NCBI RefSeq assembly: GCF_016026235.1 | Contig: NZ_CP065613.1 | Strand: one strand, 5' to 3' | Length of the DNA: 64,000 nucleotides | Source: Escherichia coli | GTDB taxonomy: Bacteria; Pseudomonadota; Gammaproteobacteria; Enterobacterales; Enterobacteriaceae | Shown: positions 29,869 to 29,879 of the stretch, one piece after another | Position numbering within the stretch: position 1 is the first letter of the stretch | Layout: each line of letters starts with the position of its first letter | Made by a program: the position numbers and the translations under genes | Notes under the pieces: generated by a model | Told to the model about the DNA's origin: nothing | The model's input: the letters and a program-made list of their open reading frames with translations, nothing else | Databases searched by the model: none

Positions 29869-29879
29869 AAGTCGTTCCC

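What the first reader, a model, noticed from the sequence alone, without database searches (positions are those of the whole stretch)
29869..29879. eutB and eutA are adjacent (11-bp spacer): no prophage interrupts the eut operon here
In K-12 MG1655, as I recall, the CPZ-55 prophage lies between eutA and eutB. Here eutB ends at 29868 and eutA starts 11 bp later, so this is the uninterrupted arrangement. Useful as a strain marker and means the operon can be transcribed as one unit from the eutS promoter.
Basis: partly seen in the sequence, partly recalled or inferred. Interest (0 to 1): 0.2.

Follow-up and report, generated by a model that had tools for sequence, protein, structure and literature searches.

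The report
Empty prophage site; eutA frameshifted
The eutA and eutB genes sit 11 bases apart with no prophage between them, which is the ordinary state in about 91% of complete E. coli genomes (K-12 is the exception), but eutA in this strain carries a one-base frameshift, so the operon is uninterrupted yet not intact.

Summary
On the minus strand, eutA stops at 29882-29880 and eutB starts at 29868, with an 11-nt spacer at 29869-29879.

In MG1655 the 6,790-bp CPZ-55 cryptic prophage lies exactly here, flanked by an 8-bp direct repeat, TCAGGAAG. The window has one copy of that repeat (29880-29887), so it is an empty attachment site.

The arrangement is ordinary and already published:
- 4,962 of 5,426 complete E. 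coli genomes (91%) have the contiguous junction.
- 213 carry K-12-type CPZ-55.
- Roughly 230-250 more are split there. The one I examined carries a different island with an IntZ-like integrase.

It is therefore a weak strain marker, saying only "not K-12-like".

An extra base at 30802 (CDS nt 483, codon 161) shifts the frame and gives a stop at 30705-30703. No complete RefSeq E. coli matching this stretch has the allele. It recurs exactly in several independent assemblies, so it is a real lineage mutation rather than a sequencing error.

The other 16 eut genes are full length. Co-transcription from the eutS promoter is plausible. Ethanolamine use is probably still impaired, through loss of the lyase reactivase and possible polarity on eutBCLKR.

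Interest is low.

The parts
29869..29879 (-). 11-nt eutA-eutB intergenic spacer (coding strand GGGAACGACTT). Together with the GA of the eutA stop codon it forms a GAGG Shine-Dalgarno-like motif 9 nt before the eutB ATG.
   Evidence: sequence; identical in the K-12 left junction
28507..29868 (-). eutB, ethanolamine ammonia-lyase large subunit, 453 aa, intact
   Evidence: annotated eutB in the matching records
29880..31284 (-). eutA (lyase reactivating factor), a frameshifted pseudogene of 1405 nt. It reads as two ORFs: 31284..30703 (193 aa, made of EutA residues 1-161 plus a 32-aa out-of-frame tail) and 30821..29880 (EutA residues 161-467 by profile match).
30802..30802 (-). The inserted base (T on the plus strand, A on the coding strand; CDS nt 483, third position of codon 161). 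It is not in a homopolymer run (coding context TACGC[A]TCTG). Deleting it restores a 467-aa EutA that differs from K-12 EutA at 6 residues.
30703..30705 (-). Premature TAA stop created by the frameshift, 834 nt upstream of the eutB start codon
29880..29887 (.). Single copy of TCAGGAAG, the 8-bp core that is duplicated at both ends of CPZ-55 in K-12. This is an unoccupied attachment site that overlaps the eutA stop codon and the codons just before it.
   Evidence: PMC6379469
25319..40205 (-). Whole eut operon, eutS-P-Q-T-D-M-N-E-J-G-H-A-B-C-L-K-R. All genes except eutA have the same lengths as the annotated reference genes.
   Evidence: gene calls on L005, which is 100% identical to window 20703..41284

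Best explanation
This is the ordinary, uninterrupted eutA-eutB junction of the E. coli ethanolamine-utilisation operon. It is an empty attachment site for the IntZ-type integrative elements, of which K-12's CPZ-55 is one. The eutA stop codon, an 11-nt spacer containing the eutB ribosome-binding site, and the eutB start codon follow one another directly. RNA polymerase starting at the eutS promoter therefore meets no foreign, oppositely oriented DNA before eutBCLKR (inferred). This strain's operon is nevertheless not intact. A lineage-specific 1-base insertion in codon 161 of eutA truncates the lyase reactivase EutA. It also uncouples eutA translation from eutB. The likely results are loss of reactivation of the ethanolamine ammonia-lyase and possibly reduced expression of the downstream genes (both inferred, not shown).
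For: Adjacency and spacer.

K-12 insertion at exactly this point: CPZ-55 is annotated at 2558691..2565480 between eutB and eutA. TCAGGAAG is present at both K-12 junctions and once in the window. The window sequence equals the reconstructed empty site.

Population frequency:
- The contiguous junction is in 4,962-4,964 of 5,426 complete genomes.
- K-12-type CPZ-55 is at the site in 213 genomes.
- A different 10.9-kb island with an IntZ-like integrase, an AIPR protein and yffS sits at the same site in strain CE0021a.

Literature:
- 8-bp duplication, and CPZ-55 in 8% of 638 strains (PMC6379469).
- 'Prophage insertion hot spot' between eutA and eutB (PMC6652756).
- eutB is not induced and no microcompartments form in BW25113 (PMC7617246).
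- Scarless removal of the prophage restores growth on ethanolamine as nitrogen source (PMC11334477).

Frameshift:
- One extra base relative to the closest complete genome, FDAARGOS_943, and to K-12.
- Both EutA fragments score below the NCBIfam cut-off, 321 and 732 bits against 799.
- The best match in the complete RefSeq collection, and every row listed, still shows the 1-base gap. The best row is 99.0% over 101 bp, with 100 record bases.
- The exact truncated protein is on record as STM06514.1 on a 4.56-Mb contig.
- It is also encoded in GCA_001907545.1 and in assemblies of SRR11606891, SRR13627083 and ERR9828666. Their DNA differs from the window by 0-3 SNPs.

Consequence of losing EutA: Salmonella EutBC does not support growth on ethanolamine without EutA (PMC9426561). 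EutA removes the damaged cofactor (PMC5821096).
Against: Nothing contradicts the adjacency or the K-12 comparison.

On the functional inference, no expression or growth data exist for this strain. A 279-aa C-terminal ORF starting at a GTG (30719) overlaps the premature stop. It might be translated by re-initiation, which would lessen polarity. The effect of a split EutA is untested.

The independent assemblies carrying the frameshift are nearly identical to each other. They may be repeated sequencing of one strain or clone rather than a broad lineage.
Confidence: 0.93

Rival explanations
1. The uninterrupted junction is derived. A CPZ-55-like element was once integrated here and later excised precisely, restoring a single TCAGGAAG.
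For: The site is a recurrent target. About 8.5% of complete genomes are split here, and more than one element type uses it. Integrase-mediated excision leaves no scar, so the sequence cannot exclude this.
Against: The empty state is the large majority, and the junction is 100% identical across very diverse strains. The closest relative, FDAARGOS_943, is also empty. No remnant of element DNA is present. Never having been occupied is the simpler reading.
Confidence: 0.04
2. The eutA frameshift is a sequencing or assembly error, and the operon is fully intact.
For: It is a single-base indel. The named protein record STM06514.1 sits on a single 4.56-Mb contig, which suggests a long-read assembly (my inference from the contig size), and such assemblies can carry indel errors.
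Against: The base is not in a homopolymer run. The identical allele appears in at least four other assemblies built from separate sequencing runs, two of which differ from the window by 2-3 SNPs.
Confidence: 0.03
3. The frameshift is tolerated. The two EutA fragments (1-161 plus tail, and about 189-467 from the GTG at 30719) are both made and together still reactivate the lyase, or EutA is dispensable under natural cobalamin levels.
For: A gene caller predicts a second ORF of 279 aa that overlaps the first stop, which permits translational re-initiation. Independent eutA null alleles persist in successful lineages, for example Q186* in 64 complete genomes, mostly O157:H7. This hints that losing EutA is not strongly counter-selected.
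Against: The break falls just after the conserved DIGGGT motif in the middle of a single EutA family domain, and residues 162-188 would be missing. Salmonella lacking EutA does not grow on ethanolamine with its own EutBC.
Confidence: 0.06

Closest known systems
E. coli K-12 MG1655 eut locus with cryptic prophage CPZ-55 (b2441 eutB, b2442-b2450 intZ..yffS, b2451 eutA)
   Same: Same operon, same gene order and the same 11-nt spacer. The flanking sequence is about 98% identical. The same TCAGGAAG core lies at the eutA stop codon.
   Different: K-12 has 6,790 bp of oppositely oriented prophage DNA between two copies of TCAGGAAG. The window has one copy and no insert. K-12 eutA is intact at 467 aa, while the window's eutA is frameshifted.
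Uninterrupted eut operon of most E. coli (e.g. FDAARGOS_943, UTI89, Nissle 1917) and of Salmonella enterica LT2
   Same: Contiguous eutA-eutB and the 17-gene order eutSPQTDMNEJGHABCLKR. The junction is identical in 4,962 of 5,426 complete genomes. For Nissle and LT2 the source is PMC7617246.
   Different: Those operons have an intact eutA. Here eutA carries a 1-base insertion that no matching genome in the complete-genome collection shows.
Other eutA null alleles in E. coli, e.g. Q186* (CAG>TAG) in an O157:H7 sub-lineage
   Same: An uninterrupted eutA-eutB junction combined with a truncated EutA of similar length, 185 aa against 193 aa.
   Different: It is an independent mutation, a nonsense substitution at codon 186 rather than a frameshift at codon 161. 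It is present in 64 complete RefSeq genomes, whereas the window's allele was found in none.

Membership tests
Uninterrupted (ancestral-type) eut operon | eutA stop codon and eutB start codon adjacent, with no inserted element | tested here: met
   11-nt spacer at 29869..29879. The region aligns contiguously with FDAARGOS_943 and 4,962 other genomes.
Uninterrupted (ancestral-type) eut operon | Gene order eutS-P-Q-T-D-M-N-E-J-G-H-A-B-C-L-K-R on one strand | tested here: met
   ORFs, annotated counterparts, and Pfam-labelled gene calls on the identical locus L005.
Uninterrupted (ancestral-type) eut operon | All 17 reading frames intact | tested here: not met
   eutA is frameshifted at 30802. The other 16 genes have reference lengths.
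K-12-type eut locus carrying CPZ-55 | intZ integrase and the yff genes between eutB and eutA, flanked by two copies of TCAGGAAG | tested here: not met
   No insert and a single TCAGGAAG at 29880..29887. The K-12 arrangement is shown.
EutA, ethanolamine ammonia-lyase reactivating factor (NCBIfam NF007991 equivalog) | A single full-length protein scoring above the curated cut-off (799 bits) over profile positions 1-467 | tested here: not met
   There are two fragments. One of 193 aa matches profile positions 1-164 at 321 bits. One of 313 aa matches positions 161-467 at 732 bits.
Single transcription unit from the eutS promoter | A transcript spanning eutA-eutB, induced by ethanolamine plus B12 through EutR | not testable with these tools
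   Only indirect evidence is available. There is no insert, and terminator-like matches over 25000..41000 are at chance level, 20 against 19.1 expected.

The most novel reading that the evidence does not exclude
eutA and its 3' end may be a recurrent point of inactivation of ethanolamine catabolism in E. coli. Several independent events converge on it. They are IntZ-type islands at its stop codon (about 8.5% of complete genomes), a Q186* allele in a cattle-associated O157:H7 sub-lineage, at least one other frameshift allele, and the codon-161 frameshift in this IS-rich lineage. This would suggest relaxed or negative selection on lyase reactivation in some niches, rather than unrelated accidents.
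Probability: 0.2. Interest if true: 0.3.

Novelty: already known. Interest (0 to 1): 0.1.

Why it matters
It matters little. That K-12 is the odd one out, with CPZ-55 between eutA and eutB, and that most E. coli have a contiguous operon, is published along with its phenotypic consequence (PMC6379469, PMC6652756, PMC7617246, PMC11334477).

The practical lesson for annotating this window is that 'no prophage' does not mean 'Eut-positive'. The strain's real eut marker is the eutA frameshift at 30802. That allele is rare and lineage-specific. Unlike the empty junction it distinguishes this lineage, and it predicts a defect in ethanolamine use.

Tried and rejected
- I scanned the GTDB species-representative genomes for the 41-mer spanning the frameshift, hoping to name the source organism. 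There were no hits. The source is therefore known only as E. coli, from the NCBI label of STM06514.1.
- I tried to read the primary papers on eutA phenotypes: Kofoid 1999 (PMC94038), Mori 2004 (PMC522198) and Costa 2022 (PMC9481676). None is held, so I relied on PMC9426561 and PMC5821096 instead.
- The promoter/terminator scan over the operon found nothing above chance. There were 2 promoter-like sites against 8.7 expected and 20 terminator-like sites against 19.1 expected. It therefore neither supports nor contradicts single-unit transcription.
- I considered programmed frameshifting at 30802 and rejected it, because there is no slippery sequence (context TAC GCA TCT GTT).
- I considered whether the window is simply FDAARGOS_943. 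It is not. About 20 SNPs, several indels and different IS positions separate them.

Full report
**1. The observation**

The eut operon lies on the minus strand of the window.
- eutB is the 453-aa ORF at 28507..29868.
- The next ORF upstream in the direction of transcription ends with TGA at 29882-29880.
- The 11 bases 29869..29879 separate the two genes. The coding strand reads ...GCA TTT CCT TCC TGA GGGAACGACTT ATG AAA CTA....

Its wording ('eutB ends... eutA starts') is true only in plus-strand coordinates. In the direction of transcription, eutA ends and eutB begins. The GA of the stop codon plus the first bases of the spacer form a GAGG motif 9 nt before the ATG, as expected for translationally coupled neighbours (read from the sequence; the coupling is inferred).

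**2.

In MG1655 (NC_000913.3) the feature 'cryptic prophage CPZ-55' is annotated at 2558691..2565480, a span of 6,790 bp. It carries intZ and yffL-yffS on the strand opposite to eut. It sits directly between eutB (b2441, ending at 2558679) and eutA (b2451, starting at 2565481).

BLAST of the window against this locus gives two blocks that meet at the junction.
- The K-12 left junction reads CATAAGTCGTTCCC-TCAGGAAG-AATCGATG...
- The K-12 right junction reads ...CCGCAT-TCAGGAAG-GAAATGCGAGTG.
- The window reads CATAAGTCGTTCCC-TCAGGAAG-GAAATGCGAGTG.

The window is therefore exactly the two K-12 flanks joined through one copy of the 8-bp core. It holds an unoccupied attachment site at 29880..29887, which overlaps the eutA stop codon.

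The same description has been published. It covers the 8-bp duplication TCAGGAAG, unaltered eutA and eutB, and CPZ-55 in 8% of 638 strains (PMC6379469).

**3. How common each state is**

Counts are out of 5,426 complete RefSeq E. coli genomes.
- The 2.8-kb eutB-eutA stretch is found as one place covering at least 80% of the query in 4,964 genomes.
- A strict 121-bp junction probe is contiguous in 4,962 genomes, or 91.4%. Almost all rows of an evenly spaced sample are 100% identical.
- A K-12 probe (CPZ-55 plus 300-bp flanks) is covered at 80% or more in 213 genomes, mostly K-12 derivatives.
- A further 230-250 or so genomes are split at the site. Their best matches to that probe are below 95% identity (232 records), the pattern seen for H33, where the match runs into a diverged intZ.

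I examined one of these, strain CE0021a. It has a different 10.9-kb island at the same position, carrying an intZ homologue, an AIPR-family protein, an IS1 and yffS. Dadswell et al. call this position a 'prophage insertion hot spot' and report a novel prophage there in a urinary isolate (PMC6652756).

The uninterrupted arrangement is thus the default. As a marker it says only 'not one of the roughly 8.5% that are occupied'.

**4. Functional meaning of an uninterrupted junction (from the literature)**

In BW25113, which carries CPZ-55, eutS and eutR are induced by ethanolamine plus B12 but eutB is not, and no microcompartments form (PMC7617246). Scarless removal of the prophage restores growth on ethanolamine as nitrogen source. 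[quoted passage not shown]

In the window, terminator-like motifs across 25000..41000 are no more frequent than in shuffled sequence, 20 against 19.1, and none lies in the spacer. Transcription itself cannot be tested with these tools.

**5.

The eutA interval 29880..31284 is 1405 nt, which is not a multiple of three. It appears as two overlapping ORFs in different frames, 31284..30703 (193 aa) and 30821..29880 (313 aa).

Alignment with the closest complete genome, FDAARGOS_943, shows a single extra T at window 30802. On the coding strand this is an A at CDS nt 483, the third position of codon 161, in the context TAC GC[A] TCT G, which is not a homopolymer run. After Ala161 the frame runs for 32 wrong residues to a TAA at 30705-30703, which is 834 nt upstream of the eutB start. 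Deleting the base restores a 467-aa EutA that differs from K-12 EutA at 6 residues.

Against NCBIfam's EutA equivalog model (cut-off 799 bits), the fragments match profile positions 1-164 (321 bits) and 161-467 (732 bits).

**6. Whether the frameshift is real**

A 101-bp probe centred on the frameshift matched 4,563 of the 5,426 complete genomes. The best match, and every row listed, was 99.0% with 100 record bases, which means a 1-base gap. No genome matched without the gap.

The exact 193-aa product is nevertheless on record as STM06514.1 [Escherichia coli], on a 4.56-Mb contig. It is also encoded in GCA_001907545.1 and in assemblies of three separate sequencing runs. Their DNA carries the same 41-mer around the insertion and differs from the window by 0, 2, 3 and 0 SNPs over 6-20 kb.

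It is therefore a genuine mutation of one narrow lineage, which may be one much-sequenced clone, and not an assembly error.

**7. Predicted consequence of the frameshift**

This section is inferred. EutA removes the damaged cofactor from ethanolamine ammonia-lyase after inactivation (PMC5821096). Salmonella EutBC does not support growth on ethanolamine when EutA is absent (PMC9426561).

The truncated product lacks about two thirds of the protein. The 834-nt untranslated stretch could also allow Rho-dependent polarity on eutBCLKR and would abolish eutA-eutB translational coupling.

A GTG at 30719 opens a 279-aa C-terminal ORF that overlaps the premature stop. Re-initiation there might soften the polarity. 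Nothing suggests the two pieces would be functional together.

The other 16 eut genes have reference lengths. My estimate is that the strain is impaired or negative for ethanolamine use despite the uninterrupted junction, with a probability of about 0.7.

**8. Context of the strain**

The window is collinear with K-12 from zipA to bamC at about 98% identity. Its nearest complete genome is FDAARGOS_943, with about 20 SNPs over roughly 58 kb of shared sequence. The two differ in IS positions.

In the window:
- An IS4-family element lies between crr and pdxK (7416..8841).
- An IS110-family element splits tktB (45132..46649).
- An IS3-family element lies next to ypfG.

In FDAARGOS_943, pdxK is broken by a cluster of IS elements and narQ is frameshifted by 4 bases that the window lacks. 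The lineage is IS-rich and accumulating pseudogenes, which fits eutA decay.

**9. Comparison with what is known, and verdict**

The junction belongs to the well-known uninterrupted eut arrangement, and the contrast with K-12 is published. Nothing here is a new kind of feature. The eutA frameshift is a private allele of modest interest.

Independent eutA null alleles exist elsewhere. One is Q186* in 64 complete genomes, mostly cattle-associated O157:H7. Another is a separate frameshift in STI47876.1. The most that could be made of this is that eutA and its 3' end are recurrent points of loss of the pathway.

Interest is 0.1, and the novelty rating is 'already known'.

Noticed in passing
window 30802 (eutA, 29880..31284, minus strand): A 1-base insertion frameshifts eutA at codon 161, with a premature stop at 30705-30703. 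No complete RefSeq E. coli matching the probe has it, but it is present in GCA_001907545.1, in STM06514.1 and in three run assemblies.
   Followed up: yes
window 45132..46649 (transposase ORF 45397..46572, minus strand); tktB about 44034..47557, plus strand: An IS110-family element, 99.9% identical to a copy elsewhere in FDAARGOS_943, is inserted inside the transketolase gene tktB. It splits the gene into ORFs ending at 45200 and starting at 46661. tktB is intact in FDAARGOS_943.
   Followed up: partly
window 7416..8841 (ORF 7429..8775, minus strand): An IS4-family transposase element lies between crr and pdxK. pdxK (8862..9713) is intact here, whereas in FDAARGOS_943 it is broken by a cluster of IS4, IS110 and IS66 elements.
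   Followed up: partly
window 47630..48987 (minus strand): Two ORFs lie at the position where FDAARGOS_943 annotates an IS3-family transposase, between tktB and ypfG. With the two elements above, that makes three IS elements in 64 kb, an IS-rich lineage.
   Followed up: no
window 32540..32625 and 32640..32725 (eutH-eutG spacer): Two 86-nt REP-like copies lie 100 bp apart (97% identical), as in K-12. FDAARGOS_943 has only one copy, so its spacer is 100 bp shorter.
   Followed up: partly
window about 54217 (narQ): The window lacks a 4-base insertion that FDAARGOS_943 carries and that RefSeq annotates as a narQ frameshift. narQ therefore appears intact here.
   Followed up: partly
L010 3556..3558 (CP051816.1); off-window: There is an independent eutA nonsense allele, Q186* (CAG>TAG). 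It is exact in 64 complete RefSeq genomes, mostly cattle-associated O157:H7, and is listed in 2,980 blocks of the assembly collection. It may bear on studies of ethanolamine use in O157:H7.
   Followed up: partly
L009 20301..31186 (NZ_CP119006.1, strain CE0021a): A 10.9-kb island different from CPZ-55 occupies the same eutA/eutB site. It carries an IntZ-like integrase (87% DNA identity), an AIPR-family (abortive-infection-like) protein, an IS1 and yffS. About 230-250 complete genomes are split at this site without carrying K-12-type CPZ-55.
   Followed up: partly
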